Shown: in pieces, positions 51,186 to 58,554 of the stretch | Position numbering within the stretch: the stretch's first letter is position 1 | Layout of the letters: every line of letters begins with the position of its first letter | The notes under the pieces: model-generated | Told to the model about the DNA's origin: nothing | Seen by the model: only the letters and a program-made list of their open reading frames with translations | Database searches by the model: none | Made by a program: the position numbers and the translations under genes | From: Candidatus Altimarinota bacterium | Lineage (GTDB): Bacteria > Patescibacteriota > Gracilibacteria > UBA1369 > GCA-2718715 | Assembly (NCBI GenBank): GCA_041242255.1 | Contig: JBESAV010000001.1 | Span: 32,001-96,000, forward strand | Direction: 5' to 3' | Length of the DNA: 64,000 bases

Positions 51186-51261
51186 GCCATCTTAGCTCAG
51201 TCGGTAGAGCGCCGCCATGGTAAGGCGGAGGTCGGCAGTTCAAATCTGCTAGATGGCTCCA
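51186..51261 (+). tRNA. tRNA-Thr(GGT), element-borne complete copy
   Basis: 76 nt: acceptor GCCATCT/AGATGGC, anticodon arm CCGCC-AT GGT AA-GGCGG, T arm GGCAG-TTCAAAT-CTGCT, encoded CCA. Confidence 0.95.
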
Positions 51262-51316
51262 TTTCCATTTCGAACCAGAGATACCTCGTGAATTAATATT
51301 CACTAAGCTCTTTAAA

Positions 51317-52213
51317 ATGGAAAACAATCAAGTATGGCATTACCTACTTCGATACTTAGAATACTCAAAGGTCATTAAAAATTACTCTCAAAACACAATC
51401 AGAAGCTACAAATGCACCATCAAAAGATTTCTCAGAGAAACCAATATAAACACTACCTCAGACCTTAATAAACAAACTATTGAAAGTTGGTTCTTTAAAG
51501 GCCGTTTAGAAAGACATTGGTCACCTAGCACCTTTCGCTCTCACCTCAAGCACATCAACTGCTTGTGTAAGTGGTTAGAGAAAGAAAATCTGATAGAACA
51601 CAATCCATGCCAAGGTATTGAAAAACCAAAACTCGAACACAAACTTCCAAGAACCCTTAGCAAGGAGGAGGCTAAACTTGTCCTAGATACAACATATCAT
51701 ATGAGATACACCTACAAGTTTGAAAGATATCGAAATACCGCTCTGATCGGGATTATGCTTTATGCAGGTTTAAGACGAGGTGAAACAATGAAGCTCAAAC
51801 TTCATGATGTAAAACTTTATGAGAAAACAATCTTCCTAAAGCAAGCTAAAGGCCACAAAGATAGACTAGTCCCAATCAATACAGCCTTAGCCTCAATCCT
51901 AGAACAGTACCTTGTAGAAAGAGGTAGACTCAAGAAAGACTCAATCTACTTCTTTGTAGGAACGAATAACAACCTACCCCTTGGAGAAAAAGTATTCACA
52001 CGGTTAATGAAACAACTCAGAAAGAAAACTAAACTAGATTTTTCAGCCCATACTCTCCGCCACGCATTCGCTCGACTTATGCTAGAGGGAGGTTGTGACA
52101 TCTACACCCTCTCAAAACTGATGGGACACTCCAAAATCACAACCACTACCATTTATCTTTCATGTTCCACCGAACAGATGAGTAAATCTATTGAGATGCA
52201 CAGATTAAATTAA
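51317..52213 (+). CDS. Tyrosine recombinase/integrase (XerC/D-like)
   Basis: SAM-like N domain (YSQNTIRSY); catalytic R (GLRRGE), K (KG.K.R), HTLRH, MGH, TTIY. Confidence 0.95.
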   Translation: MENNQVWHYLLRYLEYSKVIKNYSQNTIRSYKCTIKRFLRETNINTTSDLNKQTIESWFFKGRLERHWSPSTFRSHLKHINCLCKWLEKENLIEHNPCQGIEKPKLEHKLPRTLSKEEAKLVLDTTYHMRYTYKFERYRNTALIGIMLYAGLRRGETMKLKLHDVKLYEKTIFLKQAKGHKDRLVPINTALASILEQYLVERGRLKKDSIYFFVGTNNNLPLGEKVFTRLMKQLRKKTKLDFSAHTLRHAFARLMLEGGCDIYTLSKLMGHSKITTTTIYLSCSTEQMSKSIEMHRLN

Positions 52214-52225
52214 GTGTTTTAGGAG

Positions 52226-52705
52226 TTAGACTTTCATCCCAAGGAATCCCTTCAAAACACCCCAATAACCTAATGGATTACTTATTCTAATTTGTAGTGA
52301 ATCATCTCCATATGAGGCTGGAACCCATTCACATAACCACATTTTTTTGTAATTGTATCCTTTGTATCTATAAGTAGCTGCAAAACAGAATTTATATTTT
52401 TGTTTGGCTTTAGGTATCTCGACCCATATAGAATCATCACCAATATCTAGATCTGAAATTTTCGCCCTAAAAATTGAAACTGGTACTATATTCCTTATCT
52501 TTTCCTCTGAGCTTATTCGAATTTCTACCAAAACTTTTTCCGAGGTTTCCCCATATCTTTGATTTGATCTAAATTGATATTCAATATAAAGATCAAGGAA
52601 GGGTTCAAAAATTTGCTTGTTATTGTAATAGTTTAAACAATATCCAAGGATTACACCAATGATGGTAAAACCACCTCCAATTAGTGGTGAGAGTAAATCT
52701 GACAT
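52226..52705 (-). CDS. Hypothetical membrane-anchored cargo protein
   Basis: N-terminal TM segment; 159 aa. Confidence 0.6.
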   Translation of the reverse strand: MSDLLSPLIGGGFTIIGVILGYCLNYYNNKQIFEPFLDLYIEYQFRSNQRYGETSEKVLVEIRISSEEKIRNIVPVSIFRAKISDLDIGDDSIWVEIPKAKQKYKFCFAATYRYKGYNYKKMWLCEWVPASYGDDSLQIRISNPLGYWGVLKGFLGMKV

Positions 52706-52858
52706 GAAAATTAAATTAAATACTAGAATCTATCTTATCACCAAAAGTTAACACTCCTAATATTTCACCATCACTTTCCTTTCAGCAAAACATATCCATC
52801 TATACAGACCTCAAGAGCTCACACCTAATTTTCAAAGAACAAAAGTATCAAATTCAAT

Positions 52859-53866
52859 TTATACCTCTAAAGCAGCTACAAGAATATCTGTAGTATTTTT
52901 GGTCATAGAAGGCAGGCTCTGTATGTAAGTGTAAGTTGTAGACAGTTTTCTATGCCCTAAATGCTTCCTAATATCATCAGTGTCAGCACCCATATGAGCT
53001 AAATAAGTAGCTACATACCTCCTAATAGAGTAAACAGTGATATGAAAACCTAATGTTTTTGAAAGTCTCTGAAAATATTTTTGCATCCCTGACTTAGTCC
53101 ATCTCTTCCCCTTTTTTAATGATTCAAATAAATGATTACCTCGTCTTCCCAGTTTTTTTCTCTCAGCCAGATAATTATTAAGAATTGGCTCAATATACTC
53201 AGGAAGATAGAAAGATTGAACCCTACCTTTTTGCTTAGCTGTTTTATATTTCAGAACTAATCCTTCTTTTTCTTTTGTAATAGAACCTAGATTTAAAGAG
53301 GCTGCTTCACTTGTCCTCATACCCGTGATACACAAAATGTTCACAAATAATTCATTACGTGTCTTCTCCAACCTTGTCCTTTCTTCACTTTCTCTAACAA
53401 AGATTTTCAACTTGTTTACCTGATCATTAGTTAGGCAATCTTTTTCGGTAATTTCTTCTTTGATTTTCCCTACCTTCTTAAACTTATTTTCATCAATAAA
53501 CTCCAATTGCTTTAACCATTTAAAGTAAGTATTTAAATCTTTTCTATATGAATTATAGGTAGTACCAGACCAACCTCTCTTCTCATTAAAATGTCCTAAG
53601 AACCATTTAATGGTATGAATATCATTTACTTCCTCGATGGAAGTAATACCGACTTGGAACAACACAAACCTAAGCTTATCTTTAACGTTTTTTACAGTAG
53701 CCTTACTTCTACCACCTACTATTAGATAATCGTAAATAAAATAGTTCCAATACTCCCAAATAGGAGTTAAACCATCTTTGACAATAAGAGACCTTTTCTC
53801 AATATCACTGAGAAGTTCTTGTAGACTTTCTGGGGCTCGACTTACGTCATAATTTGTATAGCTCAA
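52859..53866 (-). CDS. Second tyrosine recombinase
   Basis: TGMRTSE, K, YSIRR (HxxR variant), LGH, TYTY; TTG start. Confidence 0.9.
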   Translation of the reverse strand: MSYTNYDVSRAPESLQELLSDIEKRSLIVKDGLTPIWEYWNYFIYDYLIVGGRSKATVKNVKDKLRFVLFQVGITSIEEVNDIHTIKWFLGHFNEKRGWSGTTYNSYRKDLNTYFKWLKQLEFIDENKFKKVGKIKEEITEKDCLTNDQVNKLKIFVRESEERTRLEKTRNELFVNILCITGMRTSEAASLNLGSITKEKEGLVLKYKTAKQKGRVQSFYLPEYIEPILNNYLAERKKLGRRGNHLFESLKKGKRWTKSGMQKYFQRLSKTLGFHITVYSIRRYVATYLAHMGADTDDIRKHLGHRKLSTTYTYIQSLPSMTKNTTDILVAALEV

Positions 53867-53943
53867 AAACGATTATTTAAAGATAATTTACTTTTGCAAT
53901 CCTTAGCCTAACACGAAAGAAACGGCTTTACAAAGGGCAAAAA

Positions 53944-54507
53944 CTTACCTTGTTTAACAAGGTAAGCCTACACTATTTGACTTGGTTAAGGTCATCGAGA
54001 CTTGCTTGTATTCGTTTTGTGTTCAATAAAAAAATCCACAAAAACCGCTAAAGTTAAACAAAACAAAATTTTGCACTAAATCCAAAACTACAAATTCTGG
54101 GCGGAGAGCATATTTAGGATACATACTTTGAGATATAGATTTACTCTAAACACCTGGTCTAACAAGGTAAAAGCTTAATAAATCATACAAATTTAAAAGT
54201 ACAATCTCCGTCATTTCACGAAAAGCAAGAAAACTGAGAAAGCTCTTTAAACAAAGACAAACCTTACTTTTTAAAATTTCTAAAAGTGTGTTTTTCGGAC
54301 GGACTGCTCATTCTAACAAAAAATATTAAAGTATGATCTACATTTCAAAAGACCTTATCCAACAAGGTAATATATTACAAAAATTAAAAACTCTAAAAAC
54401 ACAATCTCCGCTTTTTTGCCAAAATTGGTAAAATCAAGAAACCTCTTATCATAGATCAAAATACCACTTTTCCAAAATCCAAAAAGTGCTTATTTAGTGC
54501 GGAGAGG
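53944..54507. repeat. Array of ~200-bp degenerate units with palindromic ACCT..AACAAGGTAA boxes
   Basis: AACAAGGTAA at 53956, 54161, 54361; ACAATCTCCG at 54201 and 54401; CGGA boxes at ~54102, 54300, 54500. Confidence 0.8.
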
Positions 54508-54566
54508 TGCGAAGTTTCAACATCAAGTAGATTGTAATATTTGTTAATTTGCGATAATCTTTAAAC

Positions 54567-54690
54567 GAGCTCCAGTTAGTTTTCTTAACGCAAGGAACGT
54601 TCCATCGTTAACCAATTTGGTTAAAGGTGGGTACGTAGCCATATTGGTTTTCCTTGCGAATTCTAATTGGGGCTCCTACGTGCCCTCTTT
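54567..54690 (+). ncRNA. Unassigned structured RNA or leader with pseudoknot potential
   Basis: Stems 54567-79/54663-75, 54589-97/54650-58, hairpin 54602-30, and crossing helix 54629-38/54676-85; extended -10 TGcGATAAT at 54550-58. Confidence 0.6.
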
Positions 54691-54703
54691 TAATTTTATA
54701 AGC

Positions 54704-55702
54704 ATGAATAAAACACAAACAAAACCTTTCTATAAAAAAGACTGGTTTAAAATATTAATGATAATACTACTTGTAATAGTATTTCCTATATCCCTAATTC
54801 TAGTCATACCAGGACTATTATTCTATTTCATATGGAATCATAAAAAATATCCAAGACTCAGCAAAGTAAGTATTGGACTATCTACTTTAATGTTTATCTT
54901 AACAGTCATCGGATCAATCATGGTCAAACAAGAAGAAAACGAAATACTTGCATTAATCAATCAAGGTCAATTTGAGGAAGCTCAACAATACATAAATGAG
55001 AGCGATCAATCACACATGAAGCTAATGAAAGAATTAGATAAACTTAATGAAGAATTTATAGATGATAAGATAGACGAGTTAGCTACGTTAAAAATAACTG
55101 ATGTAGAAAAAGCAACCACTCTGAAAACATACTCGGATATACCTGTTTTAAATCAAGAAATTGTTGATAGAATCATAAGCAAGTCTGATCAAGTTGAGAT
55201 TAGAATTGCAGAAATTGAAAAGGAGAAGTTGGCAAATGAGCAACAAGAACTTGAAGACACAATTGCAAGAATACAAAGCAAAATTAGACAAATTAACAAT
55301 GGAAGAATACCGATACTAGATATACCCAACACCATTCAAGAATTTCCAGATACACCTGAATTATCTACATATAGAAATCAACTAATTCAAGCAGCACGAA
55401 ACCATCAAATCAAAACCTTACCTACTTTACGTAAAGACTATGCTGAAAGGATAGGTAAAGAGTTATGGGAAAACGATTATGAAATATACACCAAAGGAAA
55501 CGGCCATTCTACAATTGTTTTTGTACACTGGAGCTTTGCAAGCAACTCTAACATCAAAACAACTCATGAGCTATTTAGAGACAAGATTAGTGAGTTAAGA
55601 TTTGATAGAGCTGAATACAAATGGTCAGAATATGGGGAGTACACTTTCTATAACATGGAGTCAAAAGCAGACAGCTATATTGAAGGTATAGATAGTAATT
55701 AG
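54704..55702 (+). CDS. Hypothetical membrane protein with coiled-coil region
   Basis: ATG at 54704 (MNKTQTKPFYKKDWF...) preferred over the track's TTG at 54617, which lies inside the RNA structure; N-terminal TMs. Confidence 0.7.
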   Translation: MNKTQTKPFYKKDWFKILMIILLVIVFPISLILVIPGLLFYFIWNHKKYPRLSKVSIGLSTLMFILTVIGSIMVKQEENEILALINQGQFEEAQQYINESDQSHMKLMKELDKLNEEFIDDKIDELATLKITDVEKATTLKTYSDIPVLNQEIVDRIISKSDQVEIRIAEIEKEKLANEQQELEDTIARIQSKIRQINNGRIPILDIPNTIQEFPDTPELSTYRNQLIQAARNHQIKTLPTLRKDYAERIGKELWENDYEIYTKGNGHSTIVFVHWSFASNSNIKTTHELFRDKISELRFDRAEYKWSEYGEYTFYNMESKADSYIEGIDSN

Positions 55703-55724
55703 AAAGTCACACACTCACATAAGA

Positions 55725-56153
55725 CTAAACGTCGCATCTCTTACAAATAGGGCTAGAGTTTCTTCTTACTAAGTCTTTAATATGAACTTCTTTTGTTCTT
55801 GATGTTATAACACTACCTCTGATCTTACTTTTATAATCTTTAGTTAAAAGCTTATCATCAGTCAAAAGAAGCATAGCTTTAGACTTTAAAGCAAGTAAAA
55901 TTATATGATAGTCGTTTGATTTTAAATCATCACATTCAGGCGGACTACTTGACTCATCAATATCATACCCAATTGCTCTTTGATTAATTCTTAAATTTTT
56001 AATAAACCGCATTCTCTTTTCGCCATATTCTTTCTTAAAAATAGAACTCTTTCCATAAACCAAAAGTATTTTTCCTACTTCATTTTGTTGTTCAACATAA
56101 TTACCATCAAGGAAGAAATTATCAAACATATTATTATCAAGGATAAAACACAT
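55725..56153 (-). CDS. PIN-like domain protein
   Basis: ILDNN N-terminal strand; SND.HII.LA; LLLTDD. Confidence 0.6.
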   Translation of the reverse strand: MCFILDNNMFDNFFLDGNYVEQQNEVGKILLVYGKSSIFKKEYGEKRMRFIKNLRINQRAIGYDIDESSSPPECDDLKSNDYHIILLALKSKAMLLLTDDKLLTKDYKSKIRGSVITSRTKEVHIKDLVRRNSSPICKRCDV

Positions 56154-56158
56154 ATTAG

Positions 56159-57391
56159 TTAAAGATTGTTAAATGCCTCATCCAAAAAGAATTCCCGGTA
56201 GGAATCTGGTGCATCAATATAATTACCATTCTTATCAATCTTGATATTATAGACTTGTGCGCCATTTTTATGATTTTCTATATAGACAATATTTATCATA
56301 GAAATCTTTTCAGGATTATCTGTCAAAAACTTCTTCACAGCCCGATCAATAATAAAATCGCTATGTGTTTCAATTACTATTTTTTTGTCTTCATTTAAGA
56401 CCATATCTGCAAAAAAATCACCCATGTGCGCCTGTGCCTTTGGATGTAAATGAACTTCCGGCTGCTGTACTAAATAGAGATCATTTTTTTTTGACATTAA
56501 TGCTCCTATAATAACTGGTAAAGATTGACTTACTCCATATCCGACATCGGCCAAATTACTGTTCACACCTGAGTGCATATCCAATCTTAATTCAAAAGGA
56601 CTCACATTAATTTTTTTGTACCACGAAACTTTTATATCTTTAAACAAACCACTTTTTTTACCATACTCATAAATTTTTTCAGAAATAGACCTATCCTTTA
56701 AAATTTTAGTTAACAGATATGGTGATTCATCATTTTTGTCTGAATTTCTCTTATACATTTCATAAATTCTCTCAGGCTCAGTTCTAATTGGTGAAACTAC
56801 GTGAACTTTACCGGGTAAAGCAAATATCAATTCTTGTATTTTTTTAACAATTGTCATTACTATTTTCTCATCAACATCACTCAACTCATTTTCACTCAAA
56901 ATCATACCAATGAAATAAGTAATGAACCTTAATTCAGTCATATGCTGATAATTCAAGGTATTTTCACTCTCATTTATATCTAGTTCAATATCTTCATGGT
57001 CAGGTATTTGAAACTTAATAAATACTTTGTTTTTTTCCTTTCTAATACTATAAAAATATCCATCACTCCAATCCAAAGAAAGCATATAAGGATGTGCTTT
57101 GCCTTCTTTTGATCTATAACTCAAGCTAATGTAAACACCACCAGCAATCATATTAAATTCAAAAGTTTCAGAATTAGAATTTTTATTTTTCAATTCATCA
57201 AAAGGACCCATTTTGCTCAACATTTCTTCAGATCCGAAGCCAGTTAAATTTGCTGCCATTAAGTTTATTCCAGACAAAATACTAGTTTTACCCGAACTAT
57301 TTTCTCCTACTAAAAAAGTTAATGGTGTGATTTTAATTGATTGTTTCTTTCCAAAGCTTTTAAAATCACTTAACATCATTTGCTTAATCAT
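56159..57391 (-). CDS. AAA_15/AAA_21 ABC-type ATPase (DUF3696-like C-terminus)
   Basis: FKSF, Walker A GENSSGKTS, DVGYGVSQ.LP, QPEVHLHP..Q, ETHS. Confidence 0.9.
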   Translation of the reverse strand: MIKQMMLSDFKSFGKKQSIKITPLTFLVGENSSGKTSILSGINLMAANLTGFGSEEMLSKMGPFDELKNKNSNSETFEFNMIAGGVYISLSYRSKEGKAHPYMLSLDWSDGYFYSIRKEKNKVFIKFQIPDHEDIELDINESENTLNYQHMTELRFITYFIGMILSENELSDVDEKIVMTIVKKIQELIFALPGKVHVVSPIRTEPERIYEMYKRNSDKNDESPYLLTKILKDRSISEKIYEYGKKSGLFKDIKVSWYKKINVSPFELRLDMHSGVNSNLADVGYGVSQSLPVIIGALMSKKNDLYLVQQPEVHLHPKAQAHMGDFFADMVLNEDKKIVIETHSDFIIDRAVKKFLTDNPEKISMINIVYIENHKNGAQVYNIKIDKNGNYIDAPDSYREFFLDEAFNNL

Positions 57392-57579
57392 TCACGATTG
57401 TAATTAAGAACTTAAACCTATTATACATTAATTATTACATTCTTAAACTTAACATATATTAAACAATCCTATTATTTTCAATCAAATCTTTCAAAGCATC
57501 ACTATATAGAAGGTGATTTCAACCTGTTATGCCTAATAAAGGTAAACATTCTTTTAAATTAACTGATAAAAACAGAATT

Positions 57580-58245
57580 TTAAGTAAGCAAATACTTATT
57601 ATGGACTCCTACAGGTAAAGAACCCCTTTTAGATGGATCCAACTCTAAAATGACTAGATCATTATAAAAAAACTCTAATTCATTTGCTGGGAATTGAATC
57701 AATGACCTCAAATCAGAAGCACAGCTAGAACAAAAATAATAGTCTTGAACATTTTTTAATGAAGAAAACAGACCTGGCTTCTTGTTACACTTATTACACA
57801 CATGACTTCCCTTCTTTACATCAAACATATAGTTATCAATATCCTTAAATCTTTTTTCAAACATATCGTGTAAACTTTCTCTTTCCTCCAACAATCCTCC
57901 TGGTAAAATTGTCGACAAAATTGAATCAAATTCCTCTTTATCAATATCACCCTTAACATACCTCTTACCTAAATCTTCACCTGCCTTTTTTCCAAATATA
58001 ATTAGAGTCACATCTATATCATTCATTCTCTCCAGTAGTGTCTCATATTCAATTTGAGTAATTTTTCCTTTAGCCAACAATCCTTTCAGAGCATCTTCTA
58101 TCTTTGAAATTTTCTTATACACTAAATCAATTTGTTTCTGTAACTTACTCTGATATCGAGCCTTCTTATTTCTAGAAACTTCAGCTTGCCGATTCATTTT
58201 TGTAATACCTGCGTTGATTGATCTAAGTTTCGATTTATACCCCAC
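57580..58245 (-). CDS. Hypothetical protein with coiled coil and CxxC...CxxC zinc ribbon
   Basis: CNKC...CSSC motif; GTG start. Confidence 0.6.
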   Translation of the reverse strand: MGYKSKLRSINAGITKMNRQAEVSRNKKARYQSKLQKQIDLVYKKISKIEDALKGLLAKGKITQIEYETLLERMNDIDVTLIIFGKKAGEDLGKRYVKGDIDKEEFDSILSTILPGGLLEERESLHDMFEKRFKDIDNYMFDVKKGSHVCNKCNKKPGLFSSLKNVQDYYFCSSCASDLRSLIQFPANELEFFYNDLVILELDPSKRGSLPVGVHNKYLLT

Positions 58246-58495
58246 GATACAACTTTTACATTTTTTATACTATATCATCATTAAATCACTTTGTAATTGA
58301 GAATCAGGCCATCTTGAAAATAAACATGAGAAAAAGGAAACAACACAAAACTAACACCTTATATTAATCCATGCTATACTCTCATCACATTCACCAAGGA
58401 TACTCCCCTCGAAATGGGACACCGGCTTTTGAATCCAATCCTTGGATAATAGCTACAGATAGGCAAAATATTGTGCTACTACCTACCTTACATAT

Positions 58496-58540
58496 ATGGT
58501 AAGGGTGAGGTCACGGGTTCAACTCCCGTCGGTGGCTCCA
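58496..58540 (+). pseudogene. 3' half of the disrupted host tRNA-Thr(GGT) (attR)
   Basis: ATGGTAAGGGTGAGGTCACGGGTTCAACTCCCGTCGGTGGCTCCA, with no D-arm upstream. Confidence 0.92.
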
Positions 58541-58554
58541 TTTTAATCATATGA

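What the first reader, a model, noticed from the sequence alone, without database searches (positions are those of the whole stretch)
54550..54706. Compact multi-helix RNA with a 10-bp crossing helix inside the element
Seen: an extended -10 (TGcGATAAT, 54550-58) precedes a 13-bp closing stem GAGCTCCAGTTAG/CTAATTGGGGCTC, a 9-bp stem CGCAAGGAA/TTCCTTGCG, hairpin CCATCGTTAACCA-ATT-TGGTTAAAGGTGG and a small GCCA-TAT-TGGT hairpin. The junction segment GGGTACGTAG (54629-38) is complementary to CTACGTGCCC (54676-85) immediately 3' of the closing stem, followed by a T-rich tract and the ATG at 54704. G-U pairs favour the + strand. Inference: a pseudoknotted ncRNA or two-state switch such as an attenuator, antitoxin or recombinase-associated RNA. 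I do not recognise the family.
Basis: partly seen in the sequence, partly recalled or inferred. Interest (0 to 1): 0.7.

Follow-up and report, generated by a model that had tools for sequence, protein, structure and literature searches.

The report
New pseudoknotted leader RNA family
This is a real, previously uncatalogued folded RNA that sits at the very start of messenger RNAs for cell-surface and DNA-handling proteins in a group of tiny-genome bacteria, and it most likely works as an on/off switch for those genes.

Summary
The + strand folds at -52.5 kcal/mol (z -6.9, 0/200 shuffles). It is not a one-off: the 1.0-Mb genome holds three diverged copies. Covariance models found it in 26 of 150 related genomes and in 2 further genomes of the same class. 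All helices covary, including the 10-bp crossing helix, which was never part of the search model (91.9% of cells paired against 67% shuffled; 41/45 pairs show double changes). G·U outnumbers A·C 120:32, which fixes the strand. No Rfam 15 family matches and six literature searches found nothing. A -10 box lies just upstream in 34/35 members. A U-run follows the pseudoknot in 34/35. A same-strand ORF starts within 80 nt in 35/35. Downstream genes encode SLH-anchored nucleases, membrane OB-fold proteins, DNA methyltransferases and small membrane proteins. Best reading: a new cis-acting attenuator or riboswitch-like leader whose pseudoknot doubles as the terminator stem, with an unknown effector. 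The recombinase and antitoxin readings are not supported.

The parts
54550..54558 (+). Extended -10 promoter element (TGnGATAAT); the transcript probably starts a few nt before P1.
   Evidence: Sequence. A TAnnnT hexamer lies within 15 nt before the model start in 34 of 35 family members, against 6-17 of 35 at six control offsets. Many members carry TGn before it.
54567..54579 (+). P1 5' strand (13 bp closing stem).
   Evidence: P1 pairs are 94-97% paired, and all 13 show changes on both sides (helices 1-2).
54580..54588 (+). J1/2, an A/U-rich junction of variable length.
   Evidence: Alignments.
54589..54597 (+). P2 5' strand.
   Evidence: Helix 3 is 91.9% paired, with 9 of 9 pairs changed on both sides.
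54602..54630 (+). P3 hairpin. Its 3' strand ends in the conserved GRYGGG.
   Evidence: helices 4-6; consensus.
54629..54638 (+). Pseudoknot 5' strand (GGGUACGUAG). It overlaps the base of P3 and the first base of P4.
   Evidence: All three own-genome copies pair over 10 bp with compensatory changes. In the family it is 96.6% paired, with 7 of 9 pairs changed on both sides (helix 7). It was not part of any covariance model.
54638..54648 (+). P4 mini-hairpin, the most conserved sequence block (GCCA-nnun-GGcUa in the family).
   Evidence: The C-G pairs are invariant (helix 9).
54650..54658 (+). P2 3' strand.
54663..54675 (+). P1 3' strand (uuGGgnRaC in the family).
54676..54685 (+). Pseudoknot 3' strand (CUACGUGCCC), starting directly after P1.
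54686..54699 (+). U-rich tract directly after the pseudoknot; proposed termination site.
   Evidence: A run of at least 4 U within 0-2 nt of the pseudoknot in 34 of 35 members. Canonical hairpin-plus-U terminators are used in this genome (17 found against 9.5 +/- 3.2 expected in 20 kb).
54704..55702 (+). Downstream gene: a 332-aa membrane protein (P0001) with no Pfam or PADLOC family. Relatives of it also follow this RNA in other genomes.
   Evidence: A weak paralogue lies behind own copy 2 (23% identity over 216 aa, E 1e-5). Homologues lie behind the RNA in L041 and L325.

Best explanation
The element is one member of a new family of about 130-150-nt structured RNAs, transcribed from their own promoter as the first nucleotides of an mRNA. 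The fold has a 13-bp P1 that encloses P2. P2 encloses a long P3 hairpin and a tiny conserved P4 hairpin. The 10 nt joining P3 to P4 pair with the 10 nt that immediately follow P1, which gives a pseudoknot stacked end-to-end on P1. That pseudoknot helix has a G-C-rich end and runs straight into a U-tract, like the stem of an intrinsic terminator.

Proposed mechanism (inferred, not shown): the RNA is a cis-acting transcription attenuator with two states. In one state the pseudoknot's 5' strand is held in extended P3 and P4 pairings, the 3' strand stays free, and RNA polymerase reads into the gene. In the other state the pseudoknot snaps shut just as the U-tract is made, and transcription stops. 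An effector that is still unknown tips the balance. It could be a small molecule binding the conserved junction or P4 loop, as in a riboswitch, or an RNA-binding protein.

The controlled genes encode surface-anchored nucleases, membrane-anchored OB-fold proteins, DNA methyltransferases and other small envelope proteins. I therefore guess that the signal relates to nucleic-acid or nucleotide supply, or to foreign DNA.
For: SHOWN: real structure on the + strand.
- Searches show the fold and the strand difference.
- Three diverged copies in the own genome all keep P1 and the pseudoknot through compensatory changes.
- The family occurs in 26 of 150 relatives with model R3 and in 2 further genomes of other orders of the class.
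- On 32 rows, 91.9% of cells are paired against 67.0% shuffled, 41 of 45 pairs change on both sides, 0 of 500 shuffles reach this, and slid controls give 40-45%.
- The pseudoknot was outside every model. It still pairs in the members that R3 newly found, with new sequences such as GGGCGGCGUG/CACGCCGUCC.
- G.U cells number 120 against 32 A.C cells.

SHOWN: 5'-leader position.
- A -10 box is present in 34 of 35 members and a U-run in 34 of 35.
- A same-strand ORF starts 10-80 nt after the RNA in 35 of 35.

SHOWN: recurrent gene classes.
- SLH proteins follow the RNA in 7 loci, 3 of them with an SNase domain.
- tRNA_anti-like OB-fold proteins with a Zn-ribbon and a TM segment follow it in 4 loci.
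- DNA methyltransferases follow it in 4 loci.
- The P0001 family follows it in 4 loci.

SUPPORTING THE SWITCH (model-based).
- Before the 3' strand is made, a mean of 7.7 of the 10 pseudoknot 5'-strand nt are predicted to be paired.
- The nested-only state (mean -59.1 kcal/mol) and the pseudoknot state (mean -63.2 kcal/mol before any pseudoknot loop penalty) are close in energy (30 sequences).
- The genome uses canonical U-tract terminators.
- It almost never uses a Shine-Dalgarno site (GGAGG upstream of 0.8% of 589 long ORFs). The pseudoknot ends about 18-45 nt before the ATG, so masking of a ribosome site is a less natural mechanism.
Against: - No transcript data exist. No listed sequencing run is RNA, so the start site, termination at the U-tract and any read-through are all untested.
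- The alternative P3/P4 extension has no covariation support: 86.6% of cells are paired against 85.0% in shuffles, and 53 of 500 shuffles reach the observed value. The RNA may therefore have a single native fold.
- A terminator 'stem' whose strands lie 37-45 nt apart and cross P1 is unorthodox. I know of no demonstrated case (recall only).
- The downstream genes are heterogeneous, and many have no recognisable function, so no ligand can be deduced.
- E-values from the short-calibrated models are rough.
- The nested helices were counted on alignments fitted to that structure.
- Related genomes are not independent samples.
Confidence: 0.45

Rival explanations
1. The RNA is a constitutive 5' leader module with a single fold and no switching. 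A compact pseudoknotted cap buries the 5' end in P1 to stabilise the mRNA, and/or it presents the following U/A-rich stretch to ribosomes in an organism that lacks Shine-Dalgarno sites. It would travel with its promoter as an expression cassette for accessory genes.
For: - P1 begins within a few nt of the predicted start.
- There is no covariation for the alternative pairings.
- The genome is almost free of Shine-Dalgarno sites.
- The genes behind the RNA are diverse accessory genes, often in variable or defence-type neighbourhoods. HamA, SduA_C, AAA_15, PDDEXK and TaqI_C each occur once among 53 flanking ORFs.
- The window copy lies on a tRNA-bounded island.
Against: - A simple 5' hairpin would suffice for stabilisation. 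It would not explain five covarying helices, strictly conserved junction and loop nucleotides, and a U-run locked 0-2 nt after the pseudoknot in 34 of 35 members.
- The two states are near-isoenergetic.
Confidence: 0.2
2. The RNA is an independent small RNA of about 125 nt. The pseudoknot plus U-tract is simply its terminator, and it acts in trans on other RNAs or on a protein. The downstream ORF would then be expressed only by incidental read-through.
For: - It has its own promoter and a terminator-like 3' end.
- It occurs in several copies per genome (3 in G000; 2 each in G062, G519, G022 and G571).
Against: - In 35 of 35 members a same-strand ORF starts within 80 nt, mostly at a fixed 16-21 nt after the model end, with no room for a second promoter.
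- The variable pseudoknot core covaries with its own partner strand rather than being conserved as a seed for a trans target.
Confidence: 0.12
3. The RNA is a self-cleaving ribozyme or an RNA-processing signal that trims the mRNA leader.
For: - The fold is compact and pseudoknotted, with a few invariant nucleotides.
- It occurs in multiple copies.
- It is partly associated with mobile or variable regions.
Against: - No match to any ribozyme family in Rfam 15, even at E<=10 on the window or E<=1 on 20 member loci.
- The fixed promoter-RNA-ORF layout is typical of cis-regulators.
Confidence: 0.05
4. The element acts at the DNA level or belongs to a mobile element: a recombination site, an invertible segment, a recombinase guide RNA, or an antitoxin RNA.
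For: - The window copy lies 700 nt from a tyrosine integrase on a tRNA-Thr-bounded island.
- Own copy 2 has a serine recombinase two genes downstream.
Against: - Phage_integrase occurs in only 1 of 53 flanking ORFs across 31 loci, and no other recombinase family is among the 21 families found.
- G.U against A.C asymmetry (120:32) and a crossing helix argue for an RNA fold, not a DNA inverted repeat.
- No match in 16 viral contigs that carried the pattern, and no match in phage or plasmid collections.
- Each locus holds a single unit, not a tandem array.
Confidence: 0.03

Closest known systems
Riboswitch-type leaders whose 3' tail closes a pseudoknot (c-di-GMP-II, ZTP, fluoride, preQ1 classes; architectures recalled from memory, not from a call)
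   Same: - It lies in a 5' leader.
- It has a multi-helix junction with covarying stems and conserved junction nucleotides.
- The 3' tail folds back into the core.
- A U-tract expression platform lies nearby.
   Different: - No Rfam 15 model matches, even weakly.
- Here the pseudoknot helix itself abuts the U-tract, instead of competing with a separate terminator hairpin.
- No ligand is known.
- The own genome, a single contig 98.5% complete, has no GGDEF or DAC cyclase, so c-di-GMP and c-di-AMP are unlikely effectors. RelA_SpoT is present.
Canonical intrinsic (Rho-independent) terminator
   Same: A G-C-rich helix end (GGG:CCC) lies 0-2 nt before a U-run in 34 of 35 members. The genome uses such terminators.
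   Different: - The two strands lie 37-45 nt apart and are separated by P4 and the 3' strands of P2 and P1, so the helix is a pseudoknot and not a hairpin.
- The only local hairpin found by the scan (5 bp, 54669-54686) is not kept in members such as L043.
2'-dG-II riboswitch (recalled as being associated with extracellular nuclease genes in marine metagenomes)
   Same: It is associated with secreted or surface nuclease genes in marine bacteria. SLH+SNase proteins follow the RNA in L053, L050 and L177.
   Different: It has a quite different architecture (not a purine-type three-way junction) and no Rfam match. Most of the downstream genes here are not nucleases.

Membership tests
Any Rfam 15 family (4227 models) | A covariance-model match at or near the gathering score. 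| tested here: not met
   At gathering thresholds only 3 tRNAs were found in the window. At E<=10 over 53800-54800 there were 5 weak hits, none overlapping 54567-54685. At E<=1 over 20 member loci there were 0 hits.
Riboswitch (general kind) | A conserved, covarying structured domain. | tested here: met
   41 of 45 pairs have double changes and 0 of 500 shuffles reach the observed values. Junction and loop nucleotides are conserved.
Riboswitch (general kind) | Location in the 5' UTR, on the same strand as the regulated gene. | tested here: met
   A -10 box is present in 34 of 35 members. An ORF starts on the same strand within 80 nt in 35 of 35. The transcript itself has not been observed.
Riboswitch (general kind) | An expression platform with mutually exclusive structures. 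| tested here: inconclusive
   The pseudoknot abuts a U-run, and its 5' strand can pair elsewhere. The alternative pairs show no covariation, with 53 of 500 shuffles as good.
Riboswitch (general kind) | Direct, selective binding of a small molecule. | not testable with these tools
   This needs in-line probing, ITC or a structure.
c-di-GMP-II / c-di-AMP riboswitches | A match to the family model, and the presence of the cognate cyclase in the genome. | tested here: not met
   There is no Rfam match. GGDEF and DAC give 0 matches in the own genome, while the controls ring.
Intrinsic terminator | A stable G-C-rich hairpin immediately followed by a U-tract. | tested here: inconclusive
   The U-tract and the G-C-rich helix end are present, but the helix is a pseudoknot. 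Termination has not been measured.
Recombinase-associated or mobile-element RNA/DNA site | Consistent adjacency to a recombinase gene; DNA-level inverted-repeat symmetry. | tested here: not met
   Phage_integrase occurs in 1 of 53 flanking ORFs. G.U against A.C is 120:32. 0 of 16 pattern-bearing viral contigs match the model.
Self-cleaving ribozyme classes (hammerhead, twister, pistol, hatchet, HDV-like, etc.) | A match to a class model; site-specific self-cleavage. | tested here: not met
   No Rfam match. Cleavage itself cannot be tested here.

The most novel reading that the evidence does not exclude
This is a new riboswitch class confined to one class of ultrasmall (Patescibacteria-like) bacteria, in which the aptamer's own pseudoknot is the terminator stem. 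It would sense a nucleotide-derived or DNA-related signal. It would co-ordinate a small regulon for handling extracellular or foreign DNA: surface nucleases, surface OB-fold DNA/RNA binders, DNA methyltransferases and envelope proteins. These organisms cannot make their own nucleotides.
Probability: 0.25. Interest if true: 0.85.

Novelty: new variant of a known kind. Interest (0 to 1): 0.7.

Why it matters
- Almost nothing is known about gene regulation in ultrasmall episymbiotic bacteria. A Patescibacteria review that I searched mentions riboswitches only as imported synthetic tools (PMC11665869, passages seen).
- A native, strongly covarying leader RNA gives a concrete handle on that regulation. 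It ties together surface nucleases, nucleic-acid-binding surface proteins and restriction-modification methylases.
- If a ligand exists, it would name a signal that these organisms monitor.
- The pseudoknot-as-terminator layout would be a new expression-platform design.
- The element could serve as a native control part for the genetic tools now being built for these bacteria.

Tried and rejected
- **Plain BLAST in 100 relatives** found only the own copies.
- **A loose 21-nt pattern over 400 phylum genomes** was mostly noise, with control counts similar to the real counts. It did reveal the third own-genome copy.
- **Pattern scan of genome contigs** gave 119 stretches. 0 of the 80 listed matched R2. 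The 39 unlisted gave only one 46-nt, 24-bit match in L142 with R3, which I treat as spurious.
2 of these match R3 (L187 is new; L218 is identical to L055).
- **Pattern scan of viral contigs** gave 16 stretches, none matching.
- **Blastn against phages and plasmids** gave no match.
- **Sequencing runs:** no RNA holder is listed. All 11 rows are DNA metagenomes, 4 holding the stretch and 3 of those possibly the source.
- **Local mini-terminator** GGGGC...GCCCU was rejected as the conserved partner, because members such as L043 lose it while keeping P1 and the pseudoknot.
- **P3/P4 extension pairs** show no covariation.
- **Protein atlas search for P0001** gave a best score of 0.76, so it offers no lead. 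PADLOC and Pfam find nothing for P0001, P0002 or the 142-aa neighbour.
- **Literature:** six full-text searches found no description of such an RNA.
  - For PMC11665869, PMC11623550 and PMC11109978 I saw only the passages returned by 'find'.
  - Supplements were not consulted. Motif lists in supplements of RNA-discovery papers could hold this family unseen.
- **The organism's name** was not determined. 'Patescibacteria-like' is my inference from genome sizes of 0.4-2.1 Mb across the phylum sample.
- **Not examined:** the second match in G022 (C104, E 6.5e-9).

Full report
**1. The observation**

- TGCGATAAT at 54550-58
- P1 at 54567-79 paired with 54663-75
- P2 at 54589-97 paired with 54650-58
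- the P3 hairpin at 54602-30
- P4 at 54638-48
- the crossing helix at 54629-38 paired with 54676-85
- a T-rich tract, then the ATG at 54704

The + strand folds into exactly P1-P4 at -52.5 kcal/mol (shuffles -28.3 +/- 3.5, z -6.9, 0 of 200 as good). The - strand reaches only -34.5 kcal/mol (z -2.7).

**2. It is a family, not a singleton**

The window lies in a single-contig 1,000,477-bp genome that is 98.5% complete. That genome holds three copies, all on the + strand: C1:86564-86694 (the finding), 577865-577995 and 635019-635150.

The copies share blocks such as AAAGGUGGG, UAGCCAUAU-GG and GUGYCCUCUUUU. They differ in the stems in a compensatory way. P1 and all 10 pairs of the crossing helix are standard pairs in all three copies.

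I built three successive covariance models:
- R1 came from the window copy alone. It found the other two copies at 62 and 48 bits.
- R2 came from the three copies. It found the RNA in 16 of 150 relatives. In a class-wide sample it found none in 150 other genomes, 15 of which belong to the same order.
- R3 came from 21 sequences. It found the RNA in 26 of 150 relatives, 32 matches in all including the 3 own copies. In the class sample it found the RNA in 2 genomes outside the order, G571 with two copies and G556 with one.

Other collections added little. One further member came from a metagenome contig (L187), and L218 is identical to L055. None of 16 pattern-bearing viral contigs matched the model. 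Blastn against phage and plasmid records found nothing.

**3. The structure is under selection, pseudoknot included**

- On the 21-sequence alignment, 93.3% of cells pair against 71.6% in shuffles. 36 of 45 pairs change on both sides.
- On the 32-row alignment, which includes one spurious minus-strand row, 91.9% of cells pair against 67.0% in shuffles. 41 of 45 pairs change on both sides, 0 of 500 shuffles reach any measure, and slid controls give 40-45%.
- The nested helices were counted on model-fitted alignments, which flatters them.
- The pseudoknot was never in a model. It is still 96.6% paired, with 7 of 9 pairs changed on both sides.
- The members that R3 newly found carry fresh complementary pseudoknot pairs, for example GGGCGGCGUG/CACGCCGUCC, GGGCGUAGAG/CUCUACGCCC and GGGCGUACAUG/CAUGUACGUCC.
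- G.U cells outnumber A.C cells 120 to 32, and 17 to 0 in the pseudoknot. The fold therefore belongs to RNA of this strand, not to DNA or to the antisense strand.

Consensus: the conserved blocks are GRYGGG at the P3/pseudoknot boundary, GCCA...GGcUa in P4, uuGGgnRaC in the P1 3' strand, and YCC-nYUUUUg at the end.

**4. Context**

A TAnnnT -10 hexamer, often preceded by TGn, lies within 15 nt of the model start in 34 of 35 members. At six control offsets the count is 6-17 of 35.

A run of at least 4 U follows the pseudoknot in 34 of 35 members.

In 35 of 35 members a same-strand ORF starts 10-80 nt after the model end. In most relatives the distance is a fixed 16-21 nt.

Products of the downstream genes:
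- **SLH-domain surface proteins** in 7 loci (L053, L039, L047, L049, L050, L177, L186). Three of them also carry a staphylococcal-nuclease domain. L323 looks like an SLH protein by eye only.
- **Zn-ribbon + TM + tRNA_anti-like OB-fold proteins** in 4 loci (L037, L040, L048, L180).
- **DNA methyltransferases** in 4 loci (L181, L182 and L184 are N6_N4_Mtase; L178 is N6_Mtase/MmeI-like with VRR-NUC).
- **The P0001 family of the window** in 4 loci (window, own copy 2 weakly, L041, L325).
- **A ~160-aa membrane family** in 3 loci (L054, L055, L187).
- **Assorted small membrane or lipoprotein-like proteins** in the rest.

These assignments rest.

Flanking genes show no conserved partner. Among 53 flanking ORFs, Phage_integrase, AAA_15, HamA, SduA_C, PDDEXK_1 and TaqI_C each occur once. 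The loci therefore lie in variable, defence-island-like regions, but the RNA is not tied to a recombinase or to the ATPase pair.

**5. Mechanism**

*What is shown.* This is a promoter-proximal, strand-specific, pseudoknotted leader with a U-run welded to the pseudoknot.

*What is inferred.* The pseudoknot helix has a GGG:CCC end 0-2 nt from the U-run, so it can act as a terminator stem. The genome does use hairpin-plus-U terminators (17 found against 9.5 +/- 3.2 expected in 20 kb).

Before the 3' strand exists, folding predicts that a mean of 7.7 of the 10 pseudoknot 5'-strand nt are tied up in extended P3 and P4. The nested-only state (mean -59.1 kcal/mol) and the pseudoknot state (mean -63.2 kcal/mol before any pseudoknot loop penalty) are close in energy. 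That is the energetic signature of a switch an effector could tip.

Against this, the alternative pairs show no covariation, and no transcript data exist.

Translational control is less attractive. The genome is practically free of Shine-Dalgarno sites, and the pseudoknot ends well upstream of the start codon.

Effector candidates:
- c-di-GMP and c-di-AMP are unlikely, because the genome shows no GGDEF and no DAC domain.
- A (p)ppGpp synthetase/hydrolase is present.
- The gene set suggests a signal tied to nucleic-acid or nucleotide supply or to foreign DNA. That is a guess.

**6. Comparison and novelty**

No Rfam 15 family matches the element in the window or in 20 member loci. Six full-text searches found no description. 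Supplements were not seen.

In kind it resembles riboswitch leaders whose 3' tail closes a pseudoknot. It differs in that the pseudoknot itself abuts the U-tract. I therefore file it as a new family and a new variant of a known kind (a cis-regulatory leader or riboswitch candidate), not as a member of any named class.

**7. Verdict**

I rate the existence of a real, new structured 5'-leader RNA family at about 0.9. I rate the specific attenuator mechanism at 0.45, and a metabolite-sensing riboswitch at about 0.25. The recombinase, antitoxin and DNA-site readings are not supported.

Noticed in passing
window 51186-58543: The last 48 nt of tRNA-Thr (51217-51264) recur at 75% identity at 58496-58543 (D2). 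The ~7.3 kb between them looks like an integrated island. It carries two tyrosine integrases (51317-52213 +, 52859-53866 -), the RNA with its gene, an AAA_15 ATPase with a 142-aa partner, and a SHOCT/DUF4428 protein.
   Followed up: partly
window 53947-53965, 54152-54170, 54352-54370: Three copies of a palindromic 19-mer (ACCTTGTTTAACAAGGTAA and variants) lie about 200 nt apart in the ORF-free 840 nt between the integrase gene and the RNA (D3). They could be protein-binding sites of the island.
   Followed up: no
window 55725-57391 (-): An AAA_15/AAA_21 ATPase (best PADLOC hits NsnB 2e-42, PDC-M55A and AriA) is followed by a 142-aa ORF with no family. This is a candidate two-gene defence pair. 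A second such ATPase (553 aa) lies upstream of own RNA copy 2.
   Followed up: partly
whole window: GC skew is very strong and uniform, from -0.06 to -0.54 and mostly around -0.3 to -0.5, at 29-42% G+C.
   Followed up: no
own genome G000: The 16S rRNA ends in ...ACCUCCUUU. Even so, only 0.8% of 589 long ORFs have GGAGG, and 5.6% any 4-mer Shine-Dalgarno core, in the 20 nt upstream.
   Followed up: partly
L038-L050, L177, L179, L183 and other leaders, between the U-run and the ATG: A UAACC(C) motif sits about 12-18 nt before the start codon in roughly 18 of 31 leaders, by eye. It is absent from the three own-genome copies. Its role is unknown.
   Followed up: no
L181 1651-1656; L182 (oriented, about 26 nt after the RNA): A conserved AUG-UAA start-stop (AUGUAAUGA) lies between the RNA and the methyltransferase ORF. 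L178 has a 15-codon mini-ORF that overlaps the start of the long ORF.
   Followed up: no
L034 389-3823 (own genome C1:630388-633822): A 1144-aa beta-helix + SLH surface protein is encoded just upstream of own RNA copy 3.
   Followed up: no
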